Shown: positions 1-22,303 of the stretch, piece by piece
Numbering within the stretch: the stretch's first letter is position 1
Layout: each line of letters begins with the position of its first letter
NCBI GenBank assembly: GCA_044892525.1
Contig: CM097885.1
Location: 29,328,001-29,392,000 of the forward strand
Length of the DNA stretch: 64,000 nucleotides
Reading direction: 5' to 3'
DNA from: Schmidtea polychroa
Taxonomy: Eukaryota
The notes under the pieces: generated by a model
Told to the model about the DNA's origin: nothing
Seen by the model: only the letters and a program-made list of their open reading frames with translations
The model's database searches: none
Program-made: the position numbers and the translations under genes

Positions 1-978
1 AAGTTGTTTTAATTTTATTATCCACGTAAATTCTCATAAAAAATTTAATTCTCTGAGATGAAAATAAAGTTTGATTTGAATAATTAATTCATTAGAAAAA
101 AAAATTTGCAATCATAAAAAGTAATTTAGTTGTTTCAAAAAAATTTTTAAATTAAATTATATTTTGTTGGAATCATTTTTTCCTTTTCGAAATATTATGT
201 TTTTTTTTTGGATTCCACGTTATTTACAACCCCAGTCAAAATTTGATATTTGCTGTGGTTGTTGTTATTGTTCAAGATGAATAAGGTTTACCAAAAATAT
301 GGATAAAATTGTGGTTAATAACGGAGTTGAGCAGTTGATGGGGTATGCTTGTGTGTCTGTCTGTGTGTGTCTTTACGATTAAGTAGTTCACGGTACTTGT
401 ACATTAATCGGGGTTCTTTGTGTGTATCTATAAATGAGTGCACTTGCGTGTATGTGTGTGTCAATTTTCTTCAAAATTCATCCCAATGGTGAATGTATTT
501 CAATCTGATTGGTCAGTCATTCTACTTGTCAGACACAACCGCAAATTTTATTATCGACCCGGGAACAAAAATTAGCTCAACCCAATAACAGAATTGGTTG
601 TTTTTAAATATTTCTAGGGAGCGCATATTGAATTTTGGAAGCCATTGTGACTCGAATTTTCTGGGGCTTTTATTTTGATAAACCACTGATAAAATTTTTT
701 ATTTTATTGATTGCGGAAATCGATTTTTATGTGCAAAATATATGCCTAATTTATTCTCAGTTGCAAGGTAATTTATTTTTATTTTTTTTTCTTTCATCAT
801 TATTACTATTATTATTAATATTATGATTTAAAAATAATTTTTTGTTATTAATAACTTGTTGGTTTATTTCGCTCGCAGCATGGTAAAAAGTTAATCTCCC
901 CCGCACCGACCAACTGTTTACTCAGCCTGATAAGGTATCTGCGATGAACATTAATATTCCGAATGAATTTTTTCTTAT

Positions 979-1120
979 CCTGCGGTTTTTGACGTAGCCG
1001 ATACCGATAGGCTCTATAATAATTTTACCCTGTGGTTTCTTACGTAGCCGTGCTGATAAGCTTTCTAATTAATTACTCTGTAGTTTGTCAACGTAGTCTG
1101 TACTGATAAGCGTTCTATAT
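979..1120. repeat. Three degenerate ~48-nt tandem repeats in the 3' internal region of the retroelement
   Basis: Units of the form ctg(c/t)ggttt..acgtag(c/t)c..ctgataagc..cta repeated three times. Confidence 0.75.
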
Positions 1121-1657
1121 AAGTTTCTGCTTTACCACTTTTCGTTAGTTTTGTCTTGCCAATCTTGAAGTAAGCATTTTATATTTTCTTTTTCTTTTTC
1201 ATATATTTTTTTTTGAATTTTAGTAACGCCATCCCTCAATTACTATGGACGTAAGTGATTACTTATCTTTTGTTATTTTTTGTATTTGTGATTCTTTTTA
1301 CCATGCTGTCCTCAACTACCCTCATAGTAACCGAACACTTGCAATCGCTGTCGAGGGTAGCCAAACCCCGGTGATTGCAAGTGCTCGTGTTGCTTATTAA
1401 ATTAACTTATTGATGCTTATTAAATTAACTTATTTACTTTTTAATTTTAATTCGTTAATTTGTTTATGCAACTACCTACCCTCATGTTTTGGGTCATATA
1501 TTTTTGATTTTTGATTTTGTATTTATACTAAAAGCAAACCTCTAATTACAGCTACTCGTATTTTTCTGACAATTTTAGCCGTATTTATACTTATTAATTT
1601 ATTACGTAATTCTTAAAATCAATTACTTCCCTGCACTAACTATTTGTCGAGGGCGCC

Positions 1658-1960
1658 ATGGTACGGAGTTTTACCTAGTATTTATTTCATTTTTCTTTTC
1701 AACCCTTACTATTTTAGGCTGTCCCAGAACCTAAGTTTGAGCATCTCGATGTTATGCAATGGTTATTTGACTGCCATACTAACAGGATTTTTAATTTCTT
1801 TTTCAGGGTCCCTTTGCCACCGCGTCGAAAGGGATTGAAACGTACCTTTGCCTGTGTGGATACAGGCAGTAGGTTTGAAAGACGCCCGCCTTGCAATGTA
1901 CGCAGGGAATGGGACTGTGGCATCCAAAGTCCCGTTCTGTTGGACTCTGATGACGAATAA
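1658..1960 (+). CDS. Putative 3-exon small protein (~66 aa) antisense to the retroelement; exons 1658-1660, 1718-1761, 1807-1960
   Basis: gcgccATG|gtacgg...ttttag (57 nt intron; skipping it removes a TAG). Second intron gttatt...tactaac...tttcag (45 nt). Frame is continuous (MAVPEPKFEHLDVMQWVPLPPRRKGLKR...DSDDE*) and AATAAA follows the stop. Confidence 0.5.
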
Positions 1961-2419
1961 AACTTTGAATAAATGTTCAGCTTACCTTTGTTTTTAATTT
2001 ATGCTAGAAAGGGTGGGGTAATTGTGTCCCTCTTCGCGATTAGTCTTTGTTACTACTAATGTGAAATTATTCCTTACTTATTTATAATTTTGTTCTCTCG
2101 CCCAGTGGGTTACCCATTGCTATATAGTTATGCTAATTCATTAATTACTAATCAGCCATATTATTTATTTCTAATGCTCATTTAAGGTAGTCATTTCATT
2201 ATTTGCAACATTTATCTGAGTTATTCTATTTGCTCGTTTATCTTTGTTCATTTTTATCTATTATTCATTCATTTAATTTATCACTTTTTTACTTATTTAT
2301 TTATATCAATTTGTTTATTCATTTGATTATTTGTTAATTTACTTATAATTATTTAACTATTATTTTTTTTCTCGAGGACGAAAAAACACCAACAGGGTCC
2401 GTTGAAATAATTTATTTTT

Positions 2420-2665
2420 TTAGTCTAATTGATTTATCTCACCATCATCTTCCGATTCCTCCATTTCTTCTACTCTCATTCGAAACATCGCGAAATCGGC
2501 TTCGTGTTGAAACAATAAGATTTCCAAACGGTCCAACCGCCTTTTCAGACGGAAGTTTTCTTCCTCCAAATCTGTTATTCTGCCCTGCATGCTACGAAAC
2601 TTTTGTTTTAGTTCTTGCGTACTTGTTTTACACTCTTTGCATGTCATCCCCGAGGCTTCTTGCAT
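2420..2665 (-). CDS. 81-aa coiled-coil/leucine-zipper-like accessory protein with CxxC and acidic tail
   Basis: Heptad pattern ITDLEEENFRLKRRLDRLEILL; acceptor-like tttcAG 3 nt upstream of the ATG; same strand as the element. Confidence 0.55.
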   Translation of the reverse strand: MQEASGMTCKECKTSTQELKQKFRSMQGRITDLEEENFRLKRRLDRLEILLFQHEADFAMFRMRVEEMEESEDDGEINQLD

Positions 2666-2845
2666 TCTCTGAAATTAAATGATAGTTATTTTTTTTTGTA
2701 TCACTCTTTATTCGCAAAGCATCAACACCTCGCTTCGAATCTCAAACAAATTACACAGTTCATCCTATGGTACTTATAAAACATGCACATTGTTAATATA
2801 AATGTAATATATTTTTTTTTATACACTATTCATGCAGATCACAAT

Positions 2846-3972
2846 TTATAGTCTTGTCTCATAATATGAATATGATGGTGGTTGAAGGATAGTTAGTTGT
2901 CTCTCTTTTACACATATCAAGATGGTGATGATTATGAATGTTATTGATAAGATGAGAAACCCTGTTATTAGAATGTAAATGAGATATTCACAATAGTTGA
3001 CTGTCAAATCCGAATTTATCATCATTAGTTTATTTGAGTTAGGTTTTGTCGTCTCTTGGGTCGGTAATTGAAAAGGTGATGTGGTTGTATCTGATTTTCG
3101 TTTCGATTCATTGATTGTCTTGACTTCCACGAAAACTGTTTGCCATCTGCCTGGATCGGTTATCCATCGCTGATATTTAACTGTTAATTCCCATGCCGTC
3201 TCTAAATCAGAAGTGTAAAGTGTAAAAAAATGATTACCGGCATCTAATATAGTCAGGGTTTTTTGTTTGTAGATAATAACAACTCTTTCATCATTTCCTG
3301 ATTTTCTATATATCGTTACCGGTCCATTTCCAACACTCAGGGTTATACGATTTGACTCGTCTCTGAGATAGATAGACTGGGTCTCACTCTTAAATCGTGA
3401 CCATTGGTTTCTCACTACCGTTCCATTTTCGAGGCATATGTTCTCGTAGTAGTTTGCATTAACTGAATAATTTTGATTCATTTTCAATTTCTCGTAGCGG
3501 ATAAATGATTTTCGCGAGTTAAGGGTGTCGACATTTAACCCTTGAAATGTGATTCGCACTTTCACCAAGTCCACTGGCTTCCAATATATATATTGATTCC
3601 GTTTATCTCTGGTTCTATCTCGATCAAGTTTCGCATCTCTTTTGTGTGCAATTCTATCGGAATTTGCGTGTACCACTTTGACATGTTCTGTCTCAACAGC
3701 CATTGGTATTTGTAATTTGGCTTTAACCTTCGTACCGCAACTATATCTCTATCATAATTCAGTTCTACCACTGGTGCCGTATTGTCTAGTAGATTAATAA
3801 TTTCTATTTGGTCTGCGATCTCGCATTTACAGCTCCATACTATATTTGTTAGAGTGGAATATATATGTATTTTCTCCATTCCTCTGATTTTGTTTACCGC
3901 ATATGGTAAATCAATTTTTTTGCCGCTCGCAACTGTTACTAACATCAGCATTATTGCTACATATAATATCTT
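2846..3972 (-). CDS. Type I membrane protein fused after integrase: signal-like segment, two FN3-like domains, S/T-rich stalk, TM, PPSY tail; frameshifted at ~3585-3593
   Basis: KILYVAIMLMLVTVASG (3922-3972); IVW...RRLKPNYKYQW; removing one AT from the (AT)n run restores GINIYWKP...KLKMNQNYSV; TM ~2910-2987; QPPSY. Confidence 0.7.
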
Positions 3973-6723
3973 ATTGATGTAGCTGACTGGTGTTGGATTT
4001 TTCGTGAATTTCTGTTTCAATTTTGTTTGACCCGTTACTTTATTCTGCTTGGATCTTAAGGGGTATCTAGATTCATCTTCCTCTGGCACTAGTTTACATC
4101 GATTTGCATGCACAATCATCGGGTTAGCTTTTTTACTCCTGAATGGTAATAACTTCAAATTGGTTTCGGTGGTGTCGCACACTTTGTAGGGTCCTTTAAA
4201 TGGTCTTTGCAATTTAGGCGATAAACCTTTGAGAGGTTCCGGTCTGTTCAGATATACTAGATCTCCAATCTTTATGCCATGCGCATGTGCTTTTTTATCG
4301 TATGATTCTTTATATTTCTCTTGGTTGTGCTTTATTGTCAAACCGGCTTTAGTCCATACTGACTGCATTCTTTCTTGCATCAATGCTTTATAATCGGGTA
4401 TCTCCATATATTGTGAAATTGGTGGTTGGAATTTGAGATCAATCGGCATATTATTTTTCCTTAAATACATCAAGTAAAAAGGAGTTTCTCCTGTACTTTG
4501 ATTTACTGCATTTCTGTAGGCAAATAGACACGGCTTTATGAAGTCGTCCCAATCTTTCTGTTTTCGATTCACATATGATGAGATCATATTTATCAGTGTC
4601 CCATTAAATCGTTCCACCAATCCATCAGTTTGTGGATGATATGGTGACGTATTCAATTTCCAAATTCCAAATAAGTCTGTGATTGATTTAAACATCTCAC
4701 TTTGAAAGTTCTTTCCTTGATCAGTTAACAATTTCTTTGGAGTACCATAGCGAAATATTATGTTTTCCACAAATATTCTAGCAATCGTATCTGCTTTTTG
4801 GTTTGGAATAGCGTATGCTTCTGGCCATTTGGTAAAGTAGTCACAAAAAACAACAATGTATTTGTTTCCTTTTGTTGTTTCCGGTAATGGTCCCAGAATA
4901 TCCATTGCCGTCATCTCCATTGGTGCTGCAGGTACTGGCATCGGTTTTAATGGTACTTTAATCTTTTTACCAGTATTTCTGCGAGTGATGCATACTTTGC
5001 AACTGTTACACCAATTTTTCACGTCTTGTTCCATTGTTCGCCAAAAGTATTTCAATTTTAATCTTGATAGCGTCTTGCGCGTTGACAAATGACCTCCCAA
5101 CGCTCCATCATGATACTGCATCAGTAATGCATCTCTGTGCTTGACTGGTATAATAATTAATGCTTCCCCATTTTTCCAACATTGAAGTATTCCATTTTGA
5201 ATTACATATTTGCTGTTTGCATCTGTAAGTCGTTTCCAGTCTTGTTCTTTTCTTATTTTGACCGCTTGTTCCATAAATTGTTTTAATTCACTATCGTTTT
5301 CCTGATCATTTTGAAGTTCAGACATATCATTAACAGCTTTGATTGCTGCGAATATAGTGCCTTCCACTTTTTCAGGTGTCCCTTCACTATTATTTTCTGG
5401 GATTCTCGACATTGCATCTGCATTCGCGTTAGCTTTACCTGTCCGGTATTTAATCTCAAAGTCGTATTCTTGGAGGGCAATTGACCATCGTATTAACTTA
5501 CTGGCTGAATCTCTGTGTTTCATTAACCACTGTAATGGATTATGATCTGTATAAACAGTAAATTTTCTGCCCAATAAATATTGTCTAAAAGTAGTAATTC
5601 CATACACTAACGCTAACCTTTCCTTTTCAATCGTTGAGTAGTTTTTCTCGTGAGGCCTCAATGATCTGCTTGCGTATGCTATTACATGGTCCTTTTCACC
5701 TTCAAATTTTCGTCCCAATACTGCACCCAATGCAACGTTGCTTGCATCCGTCATCAAGATAAATTGTTTTGTAAAATCTGGACATCTTAATATAGGAGTT
5801 GTTACTAATTTCTCTTTTAATGTATTGAAAGCGTTTTGTTGCATTTGTCCCCAAATAAATTTATTGTTTTTCTTTAGTAAGGTATTCAATGGTTGTGCGA
5901 TATGAGAGAAATCTTTTATAAATTTTCGGTAATAGCTAGCCAAACCTAAAAATTGTCTAACCTCATCGGCATCTTTTGGTACTGGGTACTCTTCCACTTT
6001 TTTGATGTTATCTGGATTAGTTTGTAACCCTCGCCGTGATATTATATGTTCTACATAAATCACTTCTGCTTTGCCCCATTCACATTTCGATGGTTTGATT
6101 TTTAATTTTGCACTTTTGAGCCGTTTAAATACAGTTTCTACATCTTTCAGATGTTCTTCAAAATCATTTGAAAATATTATTATATCGTCGATATATACCA
6201 ATGCATGTCGAATTCCTCGTAACACATAATTCATTCCTCGTTGGAATGTAGCTGGGGCTCCTGTTAATCCAAATGGTAACACATTGAACTCATACAGTCC
6301 TTTGCCATCCGAGAACGCCGTCTTTCCTCTATCTTCCTCTTTTACTCTAAATTGATTGTACCCTTTGTTTAAATCAATAACTGTGAAATATCATGCCTCT
6401 CCCATTTGATCAAACATTTCTTGGGGTACCGGAATTGGATAAGTGTCTTTCCTTGTAACTTGATTTAGCTTCCGATAATCTACGCAAAATCGTAAGTCTC
6501 CATCTTTTTTCTTAACTATCACTATTGATGAGGAGAATGGTGACGCGCTATCTCGAATTATTCCAAATTCCTTCATTGCTGTAATCTGTCTATCGCTTTC
6601 ATCTTGATGAACGTAGGGGATTCTGTATGGCTTTATTTTTATTGGAGTTTCGTCTAATAACGGTATTTCATGCTCAATTACATTGGTTAAACCTAAATCA
6701 TATTCGTGTTTAGCAAAGATATC
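3973..6723 (-). pseudogene. pol: pol: reverse transcriptase, RNase H and integrase; in-frame TGA at 6391-6393
   Basis: RFCVDYRKLN, PFGLTGAPATFQ, YIDD, TDAS, TDHNPL, H-H-C-C zinc finger, MDILGP/TDQG/GLVER (DDE), KGPYKV. The sequence between the ORF-track pieces translates in the same frame. Confidence 0.97.
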
Positions 6724-9700
6724 TCAGTATTTTCTCAACAGTTTTGTAAATTCCTTTTTCTGCATCTCATTTAAATCATTGCTTACCACTTCAGGCTCCT
6801 TATACACTTTGACGTTTCTTGGTATTTTGCAATTTGTTTCAATAGACATTTTTGATAATTTTCCCAATTTTGTTTTTGGGTGTAGCTGAACCGGTTTCTT
6901 ACTGCTATTCGTTATATGGACTGGTACTATCTGATTTTCCACTTTGACAACTTCGTCACATATCGGTAAATCATATTTTTCGACTAGCGTTTGATTTGGT
7001 TCGAATATAAAATCACCATTATCCACACTCATGGTATTTGCACAATATACCATCTCCGATTGTGGTGGTATTGTCAATGTCTGATTCACAAACACTTCAC
7101 CTGCCCTGTGAATTATTTCTCCTGTTTCTCCTGCTATCAAATTACCTGTCTTTAAATCAAGTGAGACTCCGTCCAGCTGCTCTAATATATCCATGCCGAT
7201 CAGACATCGTACTGGACTTCCCTTCATTATGAGCGCATCGTGCGCTATTATTCGATCTCCAATATGGAATATGACGCTAAGTTGTCCAATTATGTTTAAT
7301 TCATTTTTTGATAATGACCTCACTATTTCGTCGGTAGGCTTTATTCGCATTTTTTCCTTCGCGTTTAATACATTTTCCGATACTATTGTGTGACTAGATC
7401 CCGAATCGACTAAAGCTTCCACTTTATGTTTGTTCATTTGTATAAATATTCGGGGTTGCTTTCCTCTTTTTGTTAATGTCATCATTGAGTAGTTGCATGG
7501 TAAGCCTAACATATTTTTTCTCTCGATCTCTGCGCTAGAAGGCTCGATTCTCTCTCCTACCATTCCTTCACATTGTAATGCGATATTTTCCACTGGTTTC
7601 ATCTCTCGTAATCGATCAACTGGATACACTGGTGATGGTTGCATAAATGATTTTGGTATACACAGTTTTGTAAACGTGTCTACGCTACTCGCATTCAACA
7701 GTGGCTCTTTTAAGATTTGATAGGTTCTTAACGCTTCTTTATTCATTCCACTTAGTTCTTGATTGTCAACATATAACGGTGCACTATCACCCTCGTCATT
7801 GTCATTGTTCTCGTCCCTTGAAGGGGTTGTACTAGCGTAGCTCACCTTTTTCTTCTTTAATATTCGAGCCTTGAGTATCTCCAACTCCTGATATTGATGA
7901 TGAGTAATGAAGAATCTAGCCAATAATGGTATGCAACCAATTACTAGTTTCCACGACCAACCTGTGATCGCATATAATCTGTGTGTTGATAGGACCTGCG
8001 ATATTATTACTTTGATTACAACACATATTACATAAATTCCAATCAATCCGGCACATGCTTGTCCAATGAACATAAACTTTCCCCAGATCTTTTTCATTGT
8101 ATTATACGTCGCTTTCTTGTAATGATCTGGAATTAACAAATACTCATAATTTACCTTCCCACTTCCGCTTGGGAGAATTGTATCTACCATTTCCATTATT
8201 ACTCTTTCTTTCTTTGATGGAAATAACAAGTTTCTGCGAGCTTCCTCAATGTCTTCGTTCGAGTAAATTCCACTTTGCGACAATTTTTCTAACGACGTAA
8301 AATTTACCAGATATTGTAATTCTGTCAATTCTAAGTTTTCCGGTGTCTTTACTTCTCGATGATCTGGTAATGCAATCCAAGATTCTGGTGTTAGTCTGTA
8401 TAATGGTGCTAACAATCTATTGCACTGTAATACTTTCGGTTTCGCGTCCTCTTCCAATAAGATTCGTGTTACAGGCTCCATAAATCGCAACTTTCCATTT
8501 AAATTCACTGGTAACTCGTTGGTGCATTGGTCATACTTTGTCAGTTTAACTGGTACCGCTTTACATTTATAGCTATATAGTGCTTCACCGAAAATTCTGG
8601 CGAACACTCCATTTTCTGCAATTAACATTGGTGCTACCAAATTAGGATTGGTTATAGCCATTGCCATCCGATTTCGGAGTATTTCTTTGTTGAGATTGCA
8701 ATCATTTATAATAACTTCTCGGTACACATTTTCAACAGTATTTTGACCAAAGTGAAATAAATAATCTATTTTGTTATTAAAGTAATTTGTCAACTTAATA
8801 TCTCCGGCATGTATGTTTGTTTGGGCCTCTGTAATCATCTTCTGAGATACATATATACCTTTATAATTTGTCTCATAGACACTTTGTCCACACTTTGTTT
8901 TAGTTTCTTTTCTCAGGAATCGCATCCCATCTTCCTCCGAGGTTGACATTAACACTGTTGGAGTATCTTTCATCCGTAGAGGTGTGATTCTTGTTGTTGT
9001 ACTCGTTGCTGGATCCATTCTTATTTTCTCAGGCTTTTCCCTGATCTGTTCTCCCGTTATTTCTTTAAAACTCATTGACTTCAATTGCACTAAATTGCAC
9101 TTTTTGGTATCGACATCGTACACCAAGATTGATTCTCCTGTCTGACAGCTAGATTGTTTCATGTTGCAGAATGGATGTGTTTGTAGTTTACCAGTATCAT
9201 CATCAAATGATCCATCAAATTCTCTTAATTCTGACATGTACTCTTCCACAACCACGGCTTTGTCCATTATAGCATCGTCTACTTTGTATGGCTCGCCTTG
9301 GCAATCACCATTCGACTTTATTATCCCTCGCACGGTTACAGTCTCACGGATTTTGTGGTTAAGCTTTGCTTGTAGTTTGAGATCTGCATTGATTTTCAAC
9401 TGTCCTGTTTGAAAGGCTGCCAAACAATTCTCTGGAATTATTTCTATCGGTCTAGGTATCGATTGCATTTTCACCATCGATGAGTGACTCCATTTTCCAC
9501 AATAAAATACAAAAGTAGTTCGTTTCACTGTACACTCTCTCACCTTTGCTCGTCGAAATCCCGATTCTTGATATACATAATATTTTACTGGATTTGTCAC
9601 TTTAAATTTTACTGGATATGCATCTGAACACTCTGCTACGTTTACCAACGAATATACTCTTCCTATTTCGGTTTGGGAGCAGTCGTATGCCACCAATGAA

Positions 9701-11709
9701 TTCGTCGTGTTTATTATTCCCAATAACATAATAACAGAAATCATCAACCATGGAAATGCGAGTTTTCCCTTTTTCCTCACTGTCTTGGTTTTTGGGCTCT
9801 CAGCCTTTTGTATCAAATTTTCCCATCCGCCATTGTTTGCGATCCACCTAGCCAAATATTTATTCGTCATTTCCGTAGCTTTCTTTATCAATGATTTTGA
9901 ACTGTCATTTTCCAGACAACCATAAATACCAATCTCCAATATTATATAGGCTAACACTGTCAATATTACATCTCGATCTAACTCAGTTCGTGTTAGGTCC
10001 TCAATTACTGCTTCCTCACAAAATTCCTTTTCTTCATAATTTCTTTTAATTATCGACGGTAATCTCCTCTTTAATTCCGTTGCCAATCTTTTTACAACTC
10101 TTTCCTCCCCCTCCGAAGTATCATCTTCTGTTTCAGTTTCATCTAACAAGTACAATTCCGTAACTAAACTTTTTAATATTCGTTCAGTCTCGTTTGATTC
10201 ATCTAATCGCTCAGTTTCGCTCGATTTATCTAAACTCAAAGATTCAATTTCCGCATCATTCTGTTTTTTCCGACATATCGCAATGTCATTTTTCGTTTCA
10301 ACGAAGTTCTCTTCGCTCTTCATCTCATCTATGCTCGGTAGTACCCTATTATCGGTGCTCGTTTCCTCGATATCCCTTGCAAATTCATTTTCCGATCCCA
10401 TTTCCTCATTTTCTATTGTTTCTAATCTCTGCAATTCATTAATTTCTTGATCAATTTCTCCTGGGTCATCTACAACTTCAGTTTTAATCTCCACATTATT
10501 ATTATCCATTTCATCATATAGAGGCCAAAACGGTACTATTACCGCATCTCTTTCCATTTCATCACTTTGTTTTGTTGCGTACACATTATTAATACAATTT
10601 GGGTTACATCCGTAGTTTAATAAATATTCGTCATCATCCAATTCTCGTCCTTTGAACGTCAACACGATAATTCCTTCATTACCTAATATCTCCGCTGCTT
10701 TTTGTCGTATTTTCTTTGCTTTTACACTCCAATGTTCCTGATAATATTCAATCCTTTGATCCGCAATATTTAACGCTATTATCAAAGACTTCGCACTATC
10801 GTCTGCCGCCTCATAATCATGTCCTAGTTTTCGGATTACCTCTTTTAGTTTTGCCTGATAACTCGTCGGTTTATTCGTATACGGTACGATGCATTCAAAC
10901 AACCCTTCTTTCATGTCTCGATCCATTTCGATGCTCATTATGAAGTCGATACTCGCATTAATTTTATCTCTATTCCCTGCATACAGGGTATCTTGTAAAT
11001 CTGCTAGAATCTTTTCCCAATTTTGTCTGTCTGAATTCAAAGTATTAACAGCATTAATAACATTTACTTTATTTTTCCAGCCTGGTATCAGACCGCAATC
11101 TACTAAGTACTCTTCGTCTTCCAGACATCGATTTTCGAATTTTAATTGCACTTGCCATCCACTGTATTGACGCAGTATTCGCTCCTTTAACTCTCTGATT
11201 TGTCCGTAGGCATTTACACGGAATTGGCACTTCACATTATCAAGTCCCGTCGTTTCCACTATGATATCAGCTAAATCCCTTGTTGACCGTAAAGCCTTGC
11301 CAAACCTTTGCATTTGTTTAAGTATCTCATCGTCTCTGTTTCCTTTGAATAACTTTGCACATAAATTTATGGCTCTCTTTAGTTCGCTTTGGGTTAGTGA
11401 CATCACACTGAGTTCTGCGATCCATCGTTTCAACTGGGAGTTGTCAGTTTCCATTTTCTCAAGCCATTTTTCAACTCGGGCTAACAGTGCAGTTGGATTC
11501 TCATCTGAAGTGATCTTTCGCACTTTCGTGGCAGGTTTTCCCTCACCTTCTGACACGGTTCCAATTATCATATGAGATTCAGTTTCCTCATCTGATTCAA
11601 ATTTCGCCACTAGTTTGTTTAGCTTCTGTCGCATTTCTCGAAATTCCTTTTCCATTTTGTCTTGAAATTCCTCTCTCTGAGCATATGTCATGTTACTGGT
11701 GTTTGGCAT
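6724..11709 (-). CDS. 1661-aa polyprotein segment: helical + ubiquitin-like (x2), acidic linker, Bcl-2-like domain, signal/TM, chuvirus-like glycoprotein, aspartic protease
   Basis: QLKFENRCLEDEEYLVDCGL and VLTFKGRELDDDEYLLNYG (ubiquitin-like); LARWIANNGGWENL (BH2); LVAYDC and GEALYSYKC..V.V....C.NELPV...F.EPVTRIL (glycoprotein); ALVDSGS and LIGMDIL (protease). Confidence 0.9.
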   Translation of the reverse strand: MPNTSNMTYAQREEFQDKMEKEFREMRQKLNKLVAKFESDEETESHMIIGTVSEGEGKPATKVRKITSDENPTALLARVEKWLEKMETDNSQLKRWIAELSVMSLTQSELKRAINLCAKLFKGNRDDEILKQMQRFGKALRSTRDLADIIVETTGLDNVKCQFRVNAYGQIRELKERILRQYSGWQVQLKFENRCLEDEEYLVDCGLIPGWKNKVNVINAVNTLNSDRQNWEKILADLQDTLYAGNRDKINASIDFIMSIEMDRDMKEGLFECIVPYTNKPTSYQAKLKEVIRKLGHDYEAADDSAKSLIIALNIADQRIEYYQEHWSVKAKKIRQKAAEILGNEGIIVLTFKGRELDDDEYLLNYGCNPNCINNVYATKQSDEMERDAVIVPFWPLYDEMDNNNVEIKTEVVDDPGEIDQEINELQRLETIENEEMGSENEFARDIEETSTDNRVLPSIDEMKSEENFVETKNDIAICRKKQNDAEIESLSLDKSSETERLDESNETERILKSLVTELYLLDETETEDDTSEGEERVVKRLATELKRRLPSIIKRNYEEKEFCEEAVIEDLTRTELDRDVILTVLAYIILEIGIYGCLENDSSKSLIKKATEMTNKYLARWIANNGGWENLIQKAESPKTKTVRKKGKLAFPWLMISVIMLLGIINTTNSLVAYDCSQTEIGRVYSLVNVAECSDAYPVKFKVTNPVKYYVYQESGFRRAKVRECTVKRTTFVFYCGKWSHSSMVKMQSIPRPIEIIPENCLAAFQTGQLKINADLKLQAKLNHKIRETVTVRGIIKSNGDCQGEPYKVDDAIMDKAVVVEEYMSELREFDGSFDDDTGKLQTHPFCNMKQSSCQTGESILVYDVDTKKCNLVQLKSMSFKEITGEQIREKPEKIRMDPATSTTTRITPLRMKDTPTVLMSTSEEDGMRFLRKETKTKCGQSVYETNYKGIYVSQKMITEAQTNIHAGDIKLTNYFNNKIDYLFHFGQNTVENVYREVIINDCNLNKEILRNRMAMAITNPNLVAPMLIAENGVFARIFGEALYSYKCKAVPVKLTKYDQCTNELPVNLNGKLRFMEPVTRILLEEDAKPKVLQCNRLLAPLYRLTPESWIALPDHREVKTPENLELTELQYLVNFTSLEKLSQSGIYSNEDIEEARRNLLFPSKKERVIMEMVDTILPSGSGKVNYEYLLIPDHYKKATYNTMKKIWGKFMFIGQACAGLIGIYVICVVIKVIISQVLSTHRLYAITGWSWKLVIGCIPLLARFFITHHQYQELEILKARILKKKKVSYASTTPSRDENNDNDEGDSAPLYVDNQELSGMNKEALRTYQILKEPLLNASSVDTFTKLCIPKSFMQPSPVYPVDRLREMKPVENIALQCEGMVGERIEPSSAEIERKNMLGLPCNYSMMTLTKRGKQPRIFIQMNKHKVEALVDSGSSHTIVSENVLNAKEKMRIKPTDEIVRSLSKNELNIIGQLSVIFHIGDRIIAHDALIMKGSPVRCLIGMDILEQLDGVSLDLKTGNLIAGETGEIIHRAGEVFVNQTLTIPPQSEMVYCANTMSVDNGDFIFEPNQTLVEKYDLPICDEVVKVENQIVPVHITNSSKKPVQLHPKTKLGKLSKMSIETNCKIPRNVKVYKEPEVVSNDLNEMQKKEFTKLLRKY

Positions 11710-11757
11710 ATCTTCTTGGAATCTGATTGATTTCTTTAAGATAGGTCTGCTGAATCT

Positions 11758-12849
11758 TTATGAGTTCCTTGGGCATGATCGCGCCATGTGGCCGTATCCC
11801 TTGCACGAGTGACATTGGATCTGTCCATTTGTATTCACTTTGTCCCTTTGTGGTGAAGGTGACGTTGACGATGACCTTGATCTGGTAAAACAGTTTCTGC
11901 TAATATGCCCTTTCTTTCCGCATCGATAGCATTCGACATCACTGCTGATCCGTTTGGTTTCTGTGAATCTCTTGTTAGGGCTGGGATTTTTCCCATATTT
12001 GAACCAACATTGATTTGAGTAGTGTCCAGACTTTTTGCAATGTTCGCATTGAGGATTATTTACCTGTCCATTTGATTGTACGTTCATGGCTGATCTACTG
12101 GCTTGAAATCTATTATTTGGTCTCAAAATTGGACTACTGATCTGATTTATTTTCTTTTCATCCCATGGTGCTCTCACAGGCGTAATTGATCGCTCACGTC
12201 TCTCCACATTAACTCCAAAAGCATCTGATCTTTTTGCACTTTTTAAATTCAGCTCTATCTTCATGGCTTTCTTCACGAGCTCATCAAAATTGGAAAAATC
12301 CACATAACATAGGGCTTTTTTGATTTCGGAGTGGACTCCGGTTATAAACTGATCTTCTAATAGCTCTTTAACCTGCTTGGCCATATCTGCTTGGTCTGGT
12401 TTAACTTCAAAGGCTTTATCTGCTAAAGTGGTCAGATGATAAGCAAACTCACTGACCGATTCATCTGGACCTTGAACTCGATTATAAAATTTCTGTCGCA
12501 TGATTCTTTTGATATCTCCACCAACCAGTTTCAGTGCCATTGCATCCTTCAATTTTGTCCAATCATTACCAACATTTCGTTTGTCGACTTGCTGCCAGGC
12601 TTCTCTTGCCGCACCCTTCAGATAGAGTGGGAATCTCTGAACCATAATGGCTTGTGTCCATCCGTATGCTGAGGCGTACATATAATAATCTCCCATGAAA
12701 TCTGCAAATTCAACAGGGTCTCCTCCATATTGATTGACGGGTAATTTCTGGCAACTTGCGAAATCAATCATCTCTCTATTGAGAGGCATAACAGCATTAT
12801 CATTTGCCATTTGGACTTGTTTCTGACTTCTGAGGTTGTATCGGTTCAC
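11758..12849 (-). CDS. gag: Gag with capsid region and three CCHC zinc knuckles (GTG start at 12849; first ATG at 12810)
   Basis: LKGAAREAW, QGPDESVSEF, DQFITG; CEHCKKSGHYSNQC, CYRCGKKGHISRNC, CHSCKGYGHMARSC. Confidence 0.95.
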   Translation of the reverse strand: MNRYNLRSQKQVQMANDNAVMPLNREMIDFASCQKLPVNQYGGDPVEFADFMGDYYMYASAYGWTQAIMVQRFPLYLKGAAREAWQQVDKRNVGNDWTKLKDAMALKLVGGDIKRIMRQKFYNRVQGPDESVSEFAYHLTTLADKAFEVKPDQADMAKQVKELLEDQFITGVHSEIKKALCYVDFSNFDELVKKAMKIELNLKSAKRSDAFGVNVERRERSITPVRAPWDEKKINQISSPILRPNNRFQASRSAMNVQSNGQVNNPQCEHCKKSGHYSNQCWFKYGKNPSPNKRFTETKRISSDVECYRCGKKGHISRNCFTRSRSSSTSPSPQRDKVNTNGQIQCHSCKGYGHMARSCPRNS

Positions 12850-13113
12850 TTTGAGCTAAACGTCAAACGTTAAACAATAATTTAAAATTACTTTTCAACT
12901 TCTTTTAAATCTCCCAATAATAGCCTTTTATAATCTCGTTAACACTATTTTCAAACCTCTAAGCCGACTTTCACTCACGTCAGTACTAATTCTTTTTATA
13001 ATTCCTTTTTCACTAGCTTCCAATAATTTCCCTCCGACTTTCAATCACGTCGGTACTATTTTCCAATAATTAATTCTTTCACTGACTTTCAATAATTTTC
13101 CGCCGACTTTCGA

Positions 13114-13131
13114 ATCACGTCGGGCTCACCA
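13114..13131 (-). promoter_or_regulatory. Primer binding site complementary to the tRNA-Trp 3' end
   Basis: Minus strand TGGTGAGCCCGACGTGAT. Plus strand 13109-13131 TTCGAATCACGTCGGGCTCACCA matches the animal tRNA-Trp 3' end as I recall it (..GGGGTCACCA) with one mismatch; 7 nt from the LTR edge. Confidence 0.9.
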
Positions 13132-13138
13132 GAATATA

Positions 13139-14199
13139 TGTTGGGTTTTGGATTATTTCAAGTCGGTTCTCTCTGACTCCTGGTGTTCTTTAAATTAAAA
13201 CAATGAACGACCCAACGTATATTGAAACAACAAGTTCACAATGTATTATCACGCTACAATTACCAATCAAAGTTTTATACGATTCTCCGCTCGGCGTTGA
13301 TGCTTTGCCAACAAACAATATTCACCTTTTGTTCCTTTAGTTCTCTCGACTCTCTTTTTCCTCGGTTTCTCTTTGGTTTGATCCCTTTCTGCCTTTCCGT
13401 ATTCTTAATTCTATTTCTTCTTTTCCCTACTTCCCTAAATTCGTTTTTTACCTCTCGACTATTCTCGATTCTTCTTACCCTACCTGAGGCAAAATGCCGA
13501 TTTTCTCTGATTTTCCCTTTGCTTATATACTCCTCGAAATCAGGATGACAAATGGTTATTGTCGAGCCAATCTTTCGTTTGACATTTTCTCCTACGTGTT
13601 TGCTTCGGCTGTCATCCATAATGGTCCAACGAATCCAGATAATTAATGGCCCTACCGGTCTTCCTACGCGCGCTATCTTCTCCTTACTCTTTTCCCATTA
13701 ATCATCGTGTCAAGCTAATGGGCCCAAATCTTCCTTTTGTTTGCCTTTCTTCTTGTTTACCCAGCTCGGGTTTCCTTTATCTCTCGGGTTCTCCATTGGC
13801 TCGGGTTTCCCATTAGCTCGGGTTTTCCATTAGCCAATTAATTAATTAATTAACGTTTTCTGTTTTCATACATTTGAATGTTTTTCGACCCTTCCTAACC
13901 CTTTTCTGATAAATCCCTAACCATCATCTTGTTGACCATTAGCTAATCTATACCTGTCCCGTTTTTCCCATTCGATTTCGATGATTTTTCCCTTTATTGA
14001 TTTTTCTCGGATTTCCGGATTCTCGCCTTTCGTAATTGCTTTTGGCATTTTCTAATACTGTTTCTATCACACTTTCCTTTACTATTGATTCTGTGCACGA
14101 TCCCGCTTTTATTTGCCTTTTTTTCCTCGCTTACTTTCCATTTGAATTATTATTCTAAATTTTATTTAAATTTTTAATTTTAATTTACAGACCTCAACA
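13139..14199 (-). repeat. 5' LTR (~1.06 kb)
   Basis: Ends TGTTG...CAACA; adjacent to the PBS; unrelated gypsy RNase H coding sequence starts at 14200; four 17-18 nt ctcgggtt(t/c)cc repeats at ~13763-13835. Confidence 0.85.
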
Positions 14200-17856: not shown

Positions 17857-18342
17857 GTTTAAAAAATTAATATTATTAAATGAAATATTAGCACTATTAA
17901 ATGAGAAGATCATATTAAAAAGATAAGAAACTTTACACTCCCATTCTGTAAAGTTTGAGATAAAAAGGAAATTTAGCAAATTACACATGACTTGAGTTAA
18001 TGGAATGTATTACTCATAAAATTTATTCAAGTTAAAACTAAAATGATAAAGAATTATTTAATTACAATTTTTTAATTAAAATGAGAAGGAATTTAAATAA
18101 GATAATTTTGACTTTGTTACTTATGTCTCTGTAGGTAATGAGAATTGAAGACAGATTATAATTAAAAGATAAGCAAATAACAAATATAAAGTAAAACTTC
18201 AAAATTAATGAACAACTGAGCAAAAATATAATAGATTTCTTATTTGTTCATTTAAAGTGATTTCTGTTATTTTATTTCACTTCTACATAATTCAAATATT
18301 TGCGACAAAAAAAACAGTGTTATTTTAGTTTATAGTTACTAT

Positions 18343-18681
18343 TAAAACCATCATTTTTTATTCATGTCCGTTTTTTTATTTGGGGGGGAGGCCGGGCCCT
18401 CCTGGCCCCCCCCCCCGACGGTACGGGCCTGTGATGACTTCAACATTTAAATAACATGCATAATAAATATCCCCAGATATTTTCTAATTTAGGGCGTTTT
18501 AACTGAAAAATTGCGAATTTTTTCAGTTAAAACGCCCTAAATTAGAAAATATCTGGGGATATTTATTATGCATGTTATTTAAATGTTGAAGTCATCACAG
18601 GCCCGTACCGTCGGGGGGGCCAGGAGGGCCCGGCCTCCCCCCAAATAAAAAAACGGACATGAATAAAAAATGATGGTTTTA
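18343..18681. repeat. Near-perfect 339-bp palindrome: inverted duplication of the hAT left end plus its flank
   Basis: Arms are reverse complements apart from homopolymer lengths; centre ~18514. Confidence 0.95.
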
Positions 18682-21600
18682 CTTCAAGGTGAAAATGAAA
18701 TAAACAATTACATTTATTCATGTACCATAAATGACCTAATAAGCACTATATAATGGGCCGAATCCTAAAGAAACCTTTTAAAAAGAAACCTTTTAACCTT
18801 TTAAGAAACCTTTTAAGTCGGAGCATCGTTTTAAATTTCATTAAATAAAAACTTTCTCGTATCCTAATTAACTGAGACTTAATCATTTTCTTAAGTTAAA
18901 AAAGATTCTCTAACAAAACTTTCAATGGGTGGTGAAGTCTTTTAAATTAGTAAAGCAATGTTACATGTCGCGAAATTTCTCAGATGTGTACGGAATTCGA
19001 ACCCCGGAGTGTGTCTATAAATTTCCCCAAATCGTTAAAGGGTAGTGCTGGACAATTAAAATATTAGCCTCACAGGATTGCTTAACACCAAATGTTAACA
19101 GCGCAACAATTGTCGATACCAAACGTTGTCGACAACAGTTGCTCTAATGTGAATCACTGCATTACATTCAATATGTTTGATAAAAGAAAAATTGCTATCT
19201 TGCACACATGCATTGACATGGGTGTGCATGAGTTGCACATGTAGAGGTTTATGTAGTATGGACGGGGGTAGGATGTTCCATCTATCTGCCTCACTGGAAG
19301 AGACTGGCATGTGAAGTCGGTGGCGTGGGTAGGGTGCGTGCTGTCTGTCTTTCCTGCCTCACAGGCAGTAACAACGCATGGAGGCATGATTGAGTGTCAG
19401 AGCACGGAGTGGGTGCATTGTGGTCTTTATACGATGGATGGTAGAGAGATAGGCCAATGAGAGCACATCACATGTCATTATACTCAACTCACTCCTATGG
19501 CAGAGTGACATGTTAATTGTTCATATTTTGTAACATTATTTTCATCGTATTAGAACATGTCGACACAAAAGAGTATCATGAATTTCTTCCAAGTCATTCC
19601 AAAGAATTCTGTGACTTCAGTCACTTCATCCAGTGATAGTATCTCTGCTACTATGTCCTCAACTTGTGGTAGTCCTTCATCTGTACCTGCTATTTCATGT
19701 ATCCGTGACAGTGCAGTGATGTCCTCATCTTCTTGTGCACCTGCTAAGACTCTGTCATCTACTAAATGTGATCTGGGTGAAGAAATGCCACGCCAACCAA
19801 CTGATGTAAATTTCCCAAAGACTTCGTTTGGTTCAAGGGAACGCTCATTTTCGTCTGTGTGGTATAATGGAAGACCATATTTGGAGTACTCTATTGAGAA
19901 AGATGCAGTCTTCTGCTTTTGCTGTAGAAAATTTTCATTGCCCGGCTCTGCTGGCGAAAGTGCTTTCAGAACAGGAGGATTCCGAAATTGGAAATCGGCT
20001 TTAGAAAAAGGAAAAGGTTTTCAAAAGCATGAATCTTCTGCTGGCCACATCCATGCCATGGAACGCTGGAAAGAGAAACAGCTGAGATGTGAAAAAGATG
20101 AGGAAGTTTGCACTTTGATTAATGAAACACAGCTGAAGAACAATCGTTATTATGTCAACGAAATCGTTGACGTTGTAAAGTTTCTTGTGACAAATGAATT
20201 AGCCTTTCGTGGTGACAGTTTCAGTAGAGATGATATTGATGAGGATGATAAGCTTCCGTGTGGTCTATTTTTACGTCTCTTCGAATACACTGTTAAGAAA
20301 AATCCTGAGCTGGCTCGAAACATTAAAACGATTCCCAAAATTGCCACGTACACATCACCTCGAATTCAAAATGAAATTATCGCGTTAATGGCATCAATAG
20401 TGCAAGAGTCAATTGTTAAGAAGTGCAAGTCTGCGGATGTTGAATATTTTACTCTGAAGGTGGATGGTACCAAAGATCGAACAGGGACTGAGAATGTGTC
20501 GATTGCCATAAGGTTTGTCTCAGCAGGACAACCTCAGGAGCACTTAATCTGCATTTCCCGAACAATTGCTCTCAATGCAGAGGCCTTCACAGATGTAATT
20601 TTGACAACCTTGAAAGAGGCTCAGTTGGATCCTAAAAATATAATTTCCCAATGCTATGATGGAGCCGCTGTTATGTCTGGACAGCATGGTGGGGTGCAGG
20701 CCTTGCTTCAGGAGCGTCTACAAATAGAAATTCCGTATGTCCATTGCTTCAACCACAAGTTGCATTTGGTTGTTGTGTGTGCGTTTCTGAGTGCCAAAAA
20801 CTGCGGGACTTCTTCGACATATGCAGAAACTTATACACATTTTTGTCATATCCTAAGGTTGCGGCCATATATCAAGGCGATAAATTGACACGGCTCATGG
20901 AACATCGTTGGACAGGACACTTGCAGACGACTCAGACAATAACAACTAATTATGATACAATTGTGAATTTGCTTGAGATGTGTTCTTGTAGACATTCTTA
21001 CTTTTCAATTGATATTCAATTGGAAGCTACTGGACTCTTGCATCAAGTCAATGAAGTGGAGTTTCAGTTCATTGCACACATGGTGCTCTCATTGCTGACT
21101 ATCCTTGAAACAGCCAACAATAGCTTGCAGGGTCAAGCAATGGACCTTTCTTCAGCATGTGATGTTATGGATGCCGGCATAGAGCGCATTCGCAGCCTAC
21201 GCAATGAAGAGGAATTCCAAGTTCTTTTTGGGAAATTCGAAGGTCAAATGGATATGGAACAGACACCAAAAAGAAGAAGAACTCAGATGAACTCAAAATT
21301 AGACAACTTCATTGTGTTCGGATCTGTGGGACAGCCAGAACACCAGGCCTTGCCTATCAGATGCGCATATCGCCAGATGTATTACGAAGTCGTTGATAGG
21401 ACTCTGCAGGAACTAACAAAACGCTTCGGTGTCACCAACAGAAGCCTTTATAAGTCTCTTGCATGTTTGAAGACTGATCACGCAAACCTTTTGAATATTG
21501 AGGAGCTAAAGACTTTAGCGACACTGTGTGGCGTGGACCTAAGCGAAACCCAACATGAATTTGAAACTGCAAAGGTTTTCCTATTGAAGAGAGCCAGTAC

Positions 21601-22303
21601 TGTGACAAACGTTCATCAGTTAGTGCAAGAACTGTACTCATACTGAGATGCTTTTCCATATGTCTATCGTCTTGCAGCTTCTGCACTGACAATCGGTGCT
21701 TCAACTGCCACATGTGAGGCGACTTTCAGTACTTTATCTCGTGTCTTAACTCCCTTTCGTACGTCGATGAGCCATTCTCGTAAAGCCAACCTTGTATTGC
21801 TCTCATTTGAAAGTGACATCAGTAATAACATCAAATCTGATGAGTTTCTTCGGCGGTTTCATGAAATGAAAAATCGTCGACTGCAGCTATTTTGAGTCAT
21901 GTCGATATCTCACACACGTAATTTCTTTTTTTCTGGATCTAGTTCCTGTGTAATTTCTATTGCACTCACCTTTAGTTTTCAAATCTGTGTGACTGTGTGT
22001 TCTGTCTTTGTATGTCCAATTGTCCGTCGTGCAAATACATGCAGCTATTTGTTTTTTGTGTTTGTTCCTAAAAAATGTGCGAAAATCATTTCCTATATAC
22101 TAGTATATGCAATAATGTAGCAAAATAATGCTCAGACAAAATGTCGATTTTGCTTTCCTTTTTTTTAAATTGAACATTTCGGAGTGCAAAGTGTGAGTAG
22201 TGACTAGTCTGTTTTCATAAAATACTTAGTTTACACGAGAATTACTGGCCCCCTTAATGAGAGTCTGGGCCCCCCCGTCAAAAGGTGTCACGGTACGGGC
22301 CTG
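18598..22303 (+). mobile_element. Full-length hAT DNA transposon (3706 bp)
   Basis: 14-bp TIR CAGGCCCGTACCGT; 8-bp TSD AGTCATCA at 18590-18597 and 22304-22311. Confidence 0.97.
19557..21895 (+). pseudogene. hAT transposase (TTF-type zinc finger, DUF4371-like region, C-terminal dimerisation domain); frameshift ~20780 and TGA at 21644-21646
   Basis: FCFCC..F, VDGTKD, QCYDGA, HCFNHKLHL, RW, STATCEATFS, RRLQLF*. Confidence 0.93.

What the first reader, a model, noticed from the sequence alone, without database searches (positions are those of the whole stretch)
9697..10191. Bcl-2-like domain whose tail anchor doubles as the envelope signal peptide
Seen: ETERILKSLVTELYL (BH4-like), VVKRLATELKRR (BH3-like), a degenerate BH1 (ELDRDVILTV where NWGRIV is expected) and a clear BH2, YLARWIANNGGWENL. 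Then comes a basic stretch and the hydrophobic LAFPWLMISVIMLLGII directly before LVAYDC. Known: Bcl-2 proteins are C-terminally anchored, and many DNA viruses encode vBcl-2. Inference: signal peptidase cleavage leaves a membrane-anchored vBcl-2 that may modulate apoptosis. Loss of NWGR could mean an altered groove or a non-apoptotic role.
Basis: partly seen in the sequence, partly recalled or inferred. Interest (0 to 1): 0.88.

Follow-up and report, generated by a model that had tools for sequence, protein, structure and literature searches.

The report
Bcl-2 domain in planarian enveloped retroelement
A retrovirus-like jumping element of a planarian-type genome carries a real but worn copy of the cell-death regulator Bcl-2 right before its envelope protein, an arrangement already described for the related Burro elements, and the envelope's signal peptide probably serves as its membrane anchor.

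Summary
Confirmed. Window 9805-10191 (- strand) folds as Bcl-2: AlphaFold on element-only sequences, best structural match Z 13.9, 36 top rows all Bcl-2 folds. It sits in a young 17.7-kb Ty3/gypsy element reading Gag-Ubl-Bcl-2-signal-gB-type Env-PR-RT-IN, with at least 126 copies in this genome. The arrangement is in print for planarian Burro elements (PMC6431247), and the env is 98% identical to Smed_errantivirus_2 (PMC13524379 supplement, compared by eye). The hydrophobic stretch is best read as Env's own signal peptide: four of five outside relatives keep it without any Bcl-2. Cleavage would leave the Bcl-2 domain membrane-anchored, as rubella capsid is; this is inferred, not shown, and was not found in print. 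The BH1 Gly is lost in all ten aligned element sequences and the BH3 'GD' is absent, so it is no killer and canonical BH3 binding is doubtful. Best guess: a divergent pro-survival accessory protein (about 50%).

The parts
9805..10191 (-). Bcl-2-fold domain (seven predicted helices)
   Evidence: AlphaFold pLDDT 67.7, pTM 0.65; VIA-align Z 13.9, rmsd 2.9, 129 aligned to Hydra Bcl-2-4; Pfam PF00452 E 0.0034, under cut-off
9967..9978 (-). BH1-equivalent tetrapeptide, DRDV where NWGR is usual
   Evidence: profile alignment to Bcl-xL; Gly absent in 10 of 10 rows of alignment A2
9823..9846 (-). BH2 motif (W..NNGGW)
   Evidence: unchanged in 37 of 37 distinct family copies examined
9697..9762 (-). internal signal peptide of Env; predicted to stay on the Bcl-2 piece as its anchor after cleavage between 9697 and 9696
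   Evidence: hydropathy peak 9706-9762; small residues at -3 and -1 in 13 of 15 element sequences; PF24664 profile position 6 falls at 9741. Cleavage itself inferred
8002..9696 (-). gB-type (Monjiviricetes-like) envelope ectodomain and its transmembrane anchor (8002-8058)
   Evidence: PF24664 E 1.9e-93; hydropathy; 246 of 251 residues identical, by eye, to Smed_errantivirus_2 env row
11089..11262 (-). ubiquitin-like domain 1
   Evidence: Pfam ubiquitin E 6.5e-4, under cut-off; low-confidence model gives weak hits to SUMO-1, ISG15, ubiquilin, none at E<=0.001
10582..10782 (-). probable second ubiquitin-like domain (approximate limits)
   Evidence: short internal repeat of domain 1; low-confidence model; weak
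11761..12855 (-). Gag with CCHC zinc knuckles
   Evidence: PF03732 E 1.8e-9, PF00098 E 2.1e-11
7168..7461 (-). aspartyl protease, in frame after Env
   Evidence: PF13975 E 4.5e-7, PF00077
3565..6723 (-). RT, RNase H, integrase, then a second signal-like segment (3913-3987); this copy has in-frame stops at 11758-60, 6724-26 and 6391-93 and a frame change near 3560-3750
   Evidence: Pfam; hydropathy; stop codons
2849..3748 (-). C-terminal part of a second, unidentified type I membrane protein (anchor 2918-2974)
   Evidence: hydropathy; no Pfam family; Atlas leads only, score 0.78
13139..14199 (-). 5' LTR; its partner lies about 2.4-3.5 kb before the window start (L117:5531-6574); 4-bp target duplication TTAT
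   Evidence: 2 mismatches and 1 gap over 1062 columns; ends and duplication; RNA starts at 13952
13114..13131 (-). primer-binding site, tRNA-Trp-like (tRNA identity recalled, not tested)
   Evidence: sequence

Best explanation
The domain is a captured, divergent Bcl-2-family protein carried as accessory cargo in the single polyprotein of a Burro-related gypsy errantivirus. The polyprotein is threaded through the ER membrane: Gag, ubiquitin-like domains and Bcl-2 in the cytosol; an internal signal peptide; Env in the lumen; the Env anchor; PR-RT-IN in the cytosol. Signal peptidase cuts before LVAYDC, freeing Env and leaving the signal peptide on the upstream piece, which gives the Bcl-2 domain the same orientation as a tail-anchored cellular Bcl-2 and also tethers the Gag precursor to the membrane that carries Env. 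There the domain most likely helps the expressing cell survive the burden of element expression, through a non-canonical groove or other surfaces rather than the classic NWGR salt bridge. Shown: fold, position, conservation, copy number, transcription of the family. Inferred: cleavage, topology, release from Gag by the element's protease, pro-survival function.
For: Fold. Same order Bcl-2, hydrophobic segment, xxYDC in five element families of this genome plus P0003 and P0005, at 17-40% identity to the window. dN/dS of the core 0.11-0.35 in 9 of 10 pairs. Four hydrophobic segments alternate as the topology needs. Nine of 127 rows of the genome search have a 3334-aa open frame, so natural copies encode one polyprotein. 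The giant relative carries a BIR-RING gene reported to protect planarian stem cells from caspase-mediated death (second-hand, PMC13465017 passages). Precedent: rubella capsid keeps the E2 signal peptide, which targets it to mitochondria (PMC3040668 passages). Divergent viral Bcl-2 folds without clear BH motifs still inhibit apoptosis (PMC11209288 passage; PMC2836074 abstract start).
Against: Gly of NWGR lost in 10 of 10 rows and the Arg not kept as Arg/Lys in families A, C, D; these residues matter for BH3 binding (PMC9027176 passages). Four of five outside relatives lack the domain next to the signal (two of the four begin only about 150 residues upstream), so it is dispensable for the element type. 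Constraint is weaker than on Env (0.05-0.10 between subfamilies) and the linker is also constrained (0.24-0.45 in most pairs), so dN/dS does not single out a Bcl-2 function; one young pair gives 1.28. The model is of middling confidence, and Bcl-2-fold poxvirus proteins with other jobs also match (N1, A52, A46, B14; Z 5.6-7.7). The cut signal could be trimmed and released by signal peptide peptidase (general knowledge).
Confidence: 0.5

Rival explanations
1. The domain keeps the Bcl-2 fold but no longer touches the Bak/Bax pathway; anchored at the ER it acts on calcium channels, autophagy, ER-stress or innate signalling, as Bok or the poxvirus A46/A52/B14/N1 class do.
For: Loss of BH1 Gly, Trp and (in A, C, D) Arg, and of BH3 Gly-Asp; ER entry implied by the signal peptide; 0-1 basic residue in the last eight positions of the anchor in 15 of 15 sequences; ubiquitin-like neighbours and TRAF/MATH cargo in the giant relative.
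Against: Best structural and profile matches are BH3-binding pro-survival proteins, well above the A52 class; the rubella precedent shows a retained signal peptide can reach mitochondria.
Confidence: 0.27
2. The domain has been turned into a structural part: a matrix-like spacer that holds Gag at the Env-bearing membrane and lines the particle envelope; signalling is secondary or lost.
For: It is made one-to-one with Gag and Env and sits between them next to the membrane; no other membrane-targeting segment was seen in Gag (no hydropathy peak).
Against: Relatives do without it and use a low-complexity linker; BH2 is kept across families at 17-40% identity, which a mere spacer would hardly need.
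Confidence: 0.13
3. The domain is a passenger: a once-useful capture that is kept only because an in-frame segment must stay free of stops and fold harmlessly.
For: Patchy presence on the env tree (two changes needed; one-clade test p 0.0496); eroded motifs; linker constrained about as much in several pairs.
Against: Retention in at least five families with saturating synonymous divergence, invariant GW of BH2 and dN/dS near 0.1 in families B and E.
Confidence: 0.08
4. The domain is a Bax/Bak-like killer or pore former that helps particles leave the cell.
For: Bak and Bax structures are among the fold matches; long hydrophobic core helix.
Against: No BH3 Gly-Asp, no BH1 Gly-Arg, both needed for the BH3-in-groove dimer (general knowledge); hundreds of transcribed copies of a killer would be costly.
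Confidence: 0.02

Closest known systems
Burro / GYPSM1 giant gypsy-like elements of planarians (Arkhipova and Yushenova 2019, PMC6431247, section read whole; Grohme et al. 2018 and Jurka 2007 known only through it)
   Same: Gag first, Ubi/SUMO-like domain, BCL2-like motif, then in-frame env of mononegavirus type, then PR-RT; a giant element with MATH and BIR-RING genes in this genome has the homologous Bcl-2, signal and env.
   Different: 17.7 kb rather than over 30 kb; no MATH, BIR, ankyrin or Smc hit in the window's frames; two ubiquitin-like domains; a second membrane protein after integrase. Whether it is one of Burro-2, -3 or -4 could not be checked.
Smed_errantivirus_2, GAG-ENV-POL errantivirus with HSV/gB-type env (Chary and Hayashi, eLife 2026, PMC13524379; passages and supplement rows)
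   Same: 246 of 251 env residues identical by eye; same gene order; high copy number (215 listed).
   Different: The paper has no 'Bcl' in its main text or seven supplements and lists no LTR or primer site for this row; both are described here.
Viral Bcl-2 homologues of large DNA viruses (BHRF1, KsBcl-2, A179L, M11L, F1L)
   Same: Same fold; host-derived; several have eroded BH motifs.
   Different: Those are free-standing genes with their own tails; this one is cut from a retroelement polyprotein and would use an envelope signal peptide as its tail.
Rubella virus capsid with retained E2 signal peptide (PMC3040668, passages)
   Same: A cytosolic polyprotein piece keeps the next glycoprotein's signal peptide as a membrane anchor and inhibits apoptosis.
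   Different: Rubella capsid has no Bcl-2 fold; unrelated virus; there the behaviour is shown by experiment.

Membership tests
Bcl-2 fold superfamily | helical bundle around a central hydrophobic helix | tested here: met
   Z 13.9, rmsd 2.9, 129 aligned; first non-Bcl-2 row Z 5.5
Bcl-2 family (Pfam PF00452) | score over the curated cut-off | tested here: not met
   18.3 of 31.4 bits; 5 of 5 members of A1 match below or near it, best E 3.5e-7
Multi-domain Bcl-2 proteins | BH2 W-x4-GGW motif | tested here: met
Canonical pro-survival Bcl-2 | BH1 NWGR with Gly and Arg | tested here: not met
   DRDV in the window; Gly absent in 10 of 10 rows
Pro-apoptotic Bax/Bak or BH3 donors | BH3 L-x3-G-D motif | tested here: not met
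   helix 2 has A-T at these places; absent in the other families too (motif recalled)
Canonical pro-survival Bcl-2 | binds BH3 peptides and blocks Bak/Bax | not testable with these tools
   needs binding and death assays
Tail-anchored Bcl-2 proteins | own C-terminal anchor ending the gene product | tested here: inconclusive
   anchor exists only after cleavage; spacing from BH2 is 26 residues here, 26-51 across families; same segment in relatives without Bcl-2
Cleaved signal peptides | basic n-region, hydrophobic h-region, small residues at -3 and -1 | tested here: met
   (13 of 15 rows meet both positions in a fixed register); no SignalP run was possible
GAG-ENV-POL errantiviruses (Ty3/gypsy, gB-type env) | gag, gB-type env, then PR-RT-RH-IN between LTRs | tested here: met
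Burro elements | Ubl, BCL2-like and env in frame between gag and pol | tested here: met
Burro elements | giant size (over 30 kb) with MATH, BIR, ankyrin cargo | tested here: not met
   17,670 bp LTR to LTR; none of these families in the window's frames

The most novel reading that the evidence does not exclude
Because it is made one-to-one with Env and anchored in the budding membrane facing inward, the Bcl-2 piece is built into the particle envelope and delivered to the next cell at fusion; with an acidic residue in place of the BH1 glycine it cannot be switched off by host BH3-only proteins. It would be a virion-borne, sensor-proof survival factor of an infectious retroelement, and with hundreds of transcribed copies a second element-supplied brake on cell death in planarian stem cells beside the Burro1 IAP.
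Probability: 0.12. Interest if true: 0.8.

Novelty: new member of a known kind. Interest (0 to 1): 0.42.

Why it matters
It turns a motif label in the Burro literature into a structurally supported, experimentally tractable domain in a much smaller and recently active family, and supplies a concrete processing model (one signal-peptidase cut gives both mature Env and an anchored Bcl-2). Viral Bcl-2 proteins are otherwise known from large DNA viruses; a retroelement version in an animal famous for stem-cell-based regeneration bears on how selfish elements and hosts bargain over cell death. The arrangement itself is not new.

Tried and rejected
Homologue searches with the domain alone were nearly blank: none, one (P0003), none, none in viral contigs. 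ESM Atlas gave Bcl-2 clusters only at 0.78, a lead. Foldseek gave no match at E<=0.001 in either library, though all top rows were Bcl-2 folds. No LTR pair inside the window: the 3' LTR lies outside it. Chance match of GGW: rejected. Programmed stop after gag: not favoured, since natural copies have one 3334-aa frame. A spliced Bcl-2/env message: none of 7 listed joints had splice-type ends at about 2% of two single-cell runs; not excluded. No listed holder of the stretch is on record as RNA. No complex prediction was run: no host Bak-type BH3 exon was found in the two stretches searched. Tree of Bcl-2 cores: 11 element rows form one side of a branch at 82/89, not starred; nearest are L062 and a DNA-element copy L073, so a donor is not established. 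Four region comparisons were set aside as misaligned (upstream W/L022, L022/L030, L098/L102; env L115/L116). The ubiquitin-like region gave a low-confidence model and no PDB sequence hit. The tRNA search was not followed to identify the primer. The analogy to the CED-9 G169E allele is recalled; the search found no paper with that term. Grohme 2018 and Lee 2026 (Dev Cell) were not held; they or their supplements may already describe this family's Bcl-2 domain.

Full report
Observation. Pfam places, in order along the - strand: Gag with zinc knuckles (11761-12855), a weak ubiquitin hit, a weak Bcl-2 hit (E 0.0034 for the isolated domain, 18.3 bits against a cut-off of 31.4), a Monjiviricetes-type fusion glycoprotein (E 1.9e-93), aspartyl protease, RT, RNase H and integrase.

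Is it Bcl-2? Yes. A profile made only of seven non-element Bcl-2 exons from this genome scores the domain at 17.7 bits; 0 of 1000 shuffles reach that (972 reported, best 10.0). A profile of ten element-only sequences retrieves 102 PDB sequences at E<=0.01, the 60 shown all Bcl-2 family, best Bcl-xL at 4.7e-7. AlphaFold on that alignment gives seven helices plus a C-terminal helix (pLDDT 67.7, pTM 0.65). Against 48,161 chains the first 36 rows are Bcl-2-fold proteins, best Z 13.9, rmsd 2.9 over 129 residues; the first unrelated row has Z 5.5. Foldseek agrees in rank but gives nothing at E<=0.001. The motifs are eroded: D-R-D-V stands opposite N-W-G-R, the Gly is absent in 10 of 10 aligned element sequences, the Arg place holds Lys or Arg only in family B, P0003 and the giant family, and helix 2 lacks the BH3 Gly-Asp (motif recalled). 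BH2 is intact in 37 of 37 distinct family-A copies examined.

The element. The 5' LTR is 13139-14199; its partner lies before the window start, with 2 mismatches and 1 gap in 1062 columns, and a 4-bp target duplication flanks the 17,670-bp element. It is inserted, antisense, in the pol gene of another gypsy element. Seven other LTR pairs are 99.2-100% identical (7 of 7 examined, chosen from the best hits). The genome search scored 126 of 2441 candidates and all 126 matched at 94-100%; 9 of 127 rows lie in a 3334-aa open frame, so natural copies encode one polyprotein. The window's copy is broken by three in-frame stops and a frame change. Raw single-cell RNA reads of a related organism cover 30 of 30 bins in two runs, with first mates on the - strand in excess in 29 and 26 of 30 bins and 42-43 molecules starting at 13952 in the LTR; none of 7 listed joints has splice-type ends (about 2% of each run read).

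Relatives. The same order, Bcl-2, hydrophobic segment, xxYDC, recurs in four more families of this genome, including a giant element with MATH/TRAF and BIR-RING genes, and in P0003 and P0005. Of five outside proteins found with the env, one has the domain and four have the same signal and env start without it; two of these four begin only about 150 residues upstream. On an env tree of 11 rows the domain needs two changes and the one-clade test gives p 0.0496: capture followed by losses, or more than one capture. The 11 element Bcl-2 cores form one side of a branch with moderate support (82/89); nearest are a divergent gene L062 and a DNA-element copy L073, whose BH1 already lacks the Gly. dN/dS of the core is 0.11-0.35 in 9 of 10 pairs and 1.28 in one very young pair; Env is 0.05-0.10 between subfamilies and the linker 0.24-0.81 where measurable.

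The shared segment. Hydropathy finds, besides the Bcl-2 core helix, four segments: 9706-9762, 8002-8058, 3913-3987 and 2918-2974. They alternate as a threaded polyprotein needs: cytosolic Gag-Ubl-Bcl-2, luminal Env, cytosolic PR-RT-IN, a second luminal protein. Small residues stand at both -3 and -1 before the env start in 13 of 15 sequences in a fixed register, and position 6 of the viral glycoprotein profile falls at 9741, inside the hydrophobic stretch. So the segment is Env's signal peptide. After cleavage it would remain on the upstream piece, 26 residues behind BH2, giving the orientation of a tail-anchored Bcl-2. This step is inference; SignalP could not be run. [quoted passage not shown] Whether the element's protease frees the domain from Gag was not tested; an earlier scan note proposes protease sites between cargo domains in the giant relative (e1-7879936).

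Mechanism. Most likely (0.5) a divergent pro-survival accessory factor anchored by the borrowed signal; next (0.27) an ER-resident Bcl-2 fold with a non-apoptotic job; then a matrix-like structural role (0.13), a passenger (0.08) or a killer (0.02). The BH1 Gly and Arg matter for BH3 binding (PMC9027176, passages), which argues against a textbook groove, but poxvirus proteins without recognisable BH motifs still inhibit apoptosis (PMC11209288, passage), and the giant relative's IAP is reported to protect stem cells (PMC13465017, passages citing Lee et al. 2026).

What is known. Arkhipova and Yushenova 2019 (PMC6431247, section 7 read whole) describe Gag, Ubi/SUMO-like, BCL-2, env and PR in one frame in planarian Burro elements. 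Chary and Hayashi 2026 (PMC13524379, passages and supplement rows) catalogue GAG-ENV-POL errantiviruses of flatworms; their Smed_errantivirus_2 env differs from the window's at 5 of 251 positions by eye, so this is that family and the host is inferred to be a dugesiid planarian (species not determined). 'Bcl' does not occur in that paper or its seven supplements. The shared anchor/signal idea, the fold test and the BH1 loss were not found in searches; Grohme 2018 and Lee 2026 could not be read and may hold them. PMC8532177 and PMC13238120 (passages) added nothing on the domain.

Verdict. Real and under selection, well supported as a fold, plausible but unproven as an anchored survival factor, and of a kind already described. 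It works like a viral Bcl-2 in position and fold; it fails the motif tests for a canonical pro-survival or pro-death member.

Noticed in passing
window 2849-3987 (- strand): After integrase the polyprotein continues into a second signal-like segment and a roughly 400-residue type I membrane protein with no Pfam family; Atlas leads point loosely to herpes- and adenovirus glycoproteins (0.78, not significant). Could be a receptor-binding partner of Env or a decoy.
   Followed up: partly
L066-L080 (for example L073:1405-2988): Dozens of dispersed small stand-alone Bcl-2 genes, one group with a short intron; L073/L074 lie beside a TATA-binding-protein-like frame (recognised by eye). An earlier scan note places such a gene in a Polinton. 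They are among the nearest non-element relatives of the retroelement domain.
   Followed up: partly
L105-L116: A giant Burro1-like family in this genome with separate TRAF/MATH and BIR-RING frames downstream of pol; at least 150 BIR matches, most in 392-393-aa frames.
   Followed up: partly
window 9000-13100 against public runs: Three coded organism labels hold the stretch, and reads of one are mostly 95-99% alike; with 98% env identity to the S. mediterranea family this may point to recent passage between species.
   Followed up: no
window 12963-13121: A 69-bp unit repeated 2.3 times in the leader, each copy holding a worn version of the primer-binding site.
   Followed up: no
window 1-2845 and L117:6575-9001: About 5 kb of non-coding sequence between the end of the polyprotein and the 3' LTR, unusually long.
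   Followed up: no
P0005-P0008: Outside relatives carry two or more aspartyl-protease-like domains after Env.
   Followed up: no
L051-L057 (G000:C4:89.95-90.83 Mb): At least seven near-identical tandem copies of a canonical NWGR-bearing host Bcl-2 exon.
   Followed up: no
window 19554-21646 and 18318-18706: A DUF4371 (hAT-type, label recalled) transposase region and a 101-bp perfect inverted repeat; unrelated to the finding.
   Followed up: no
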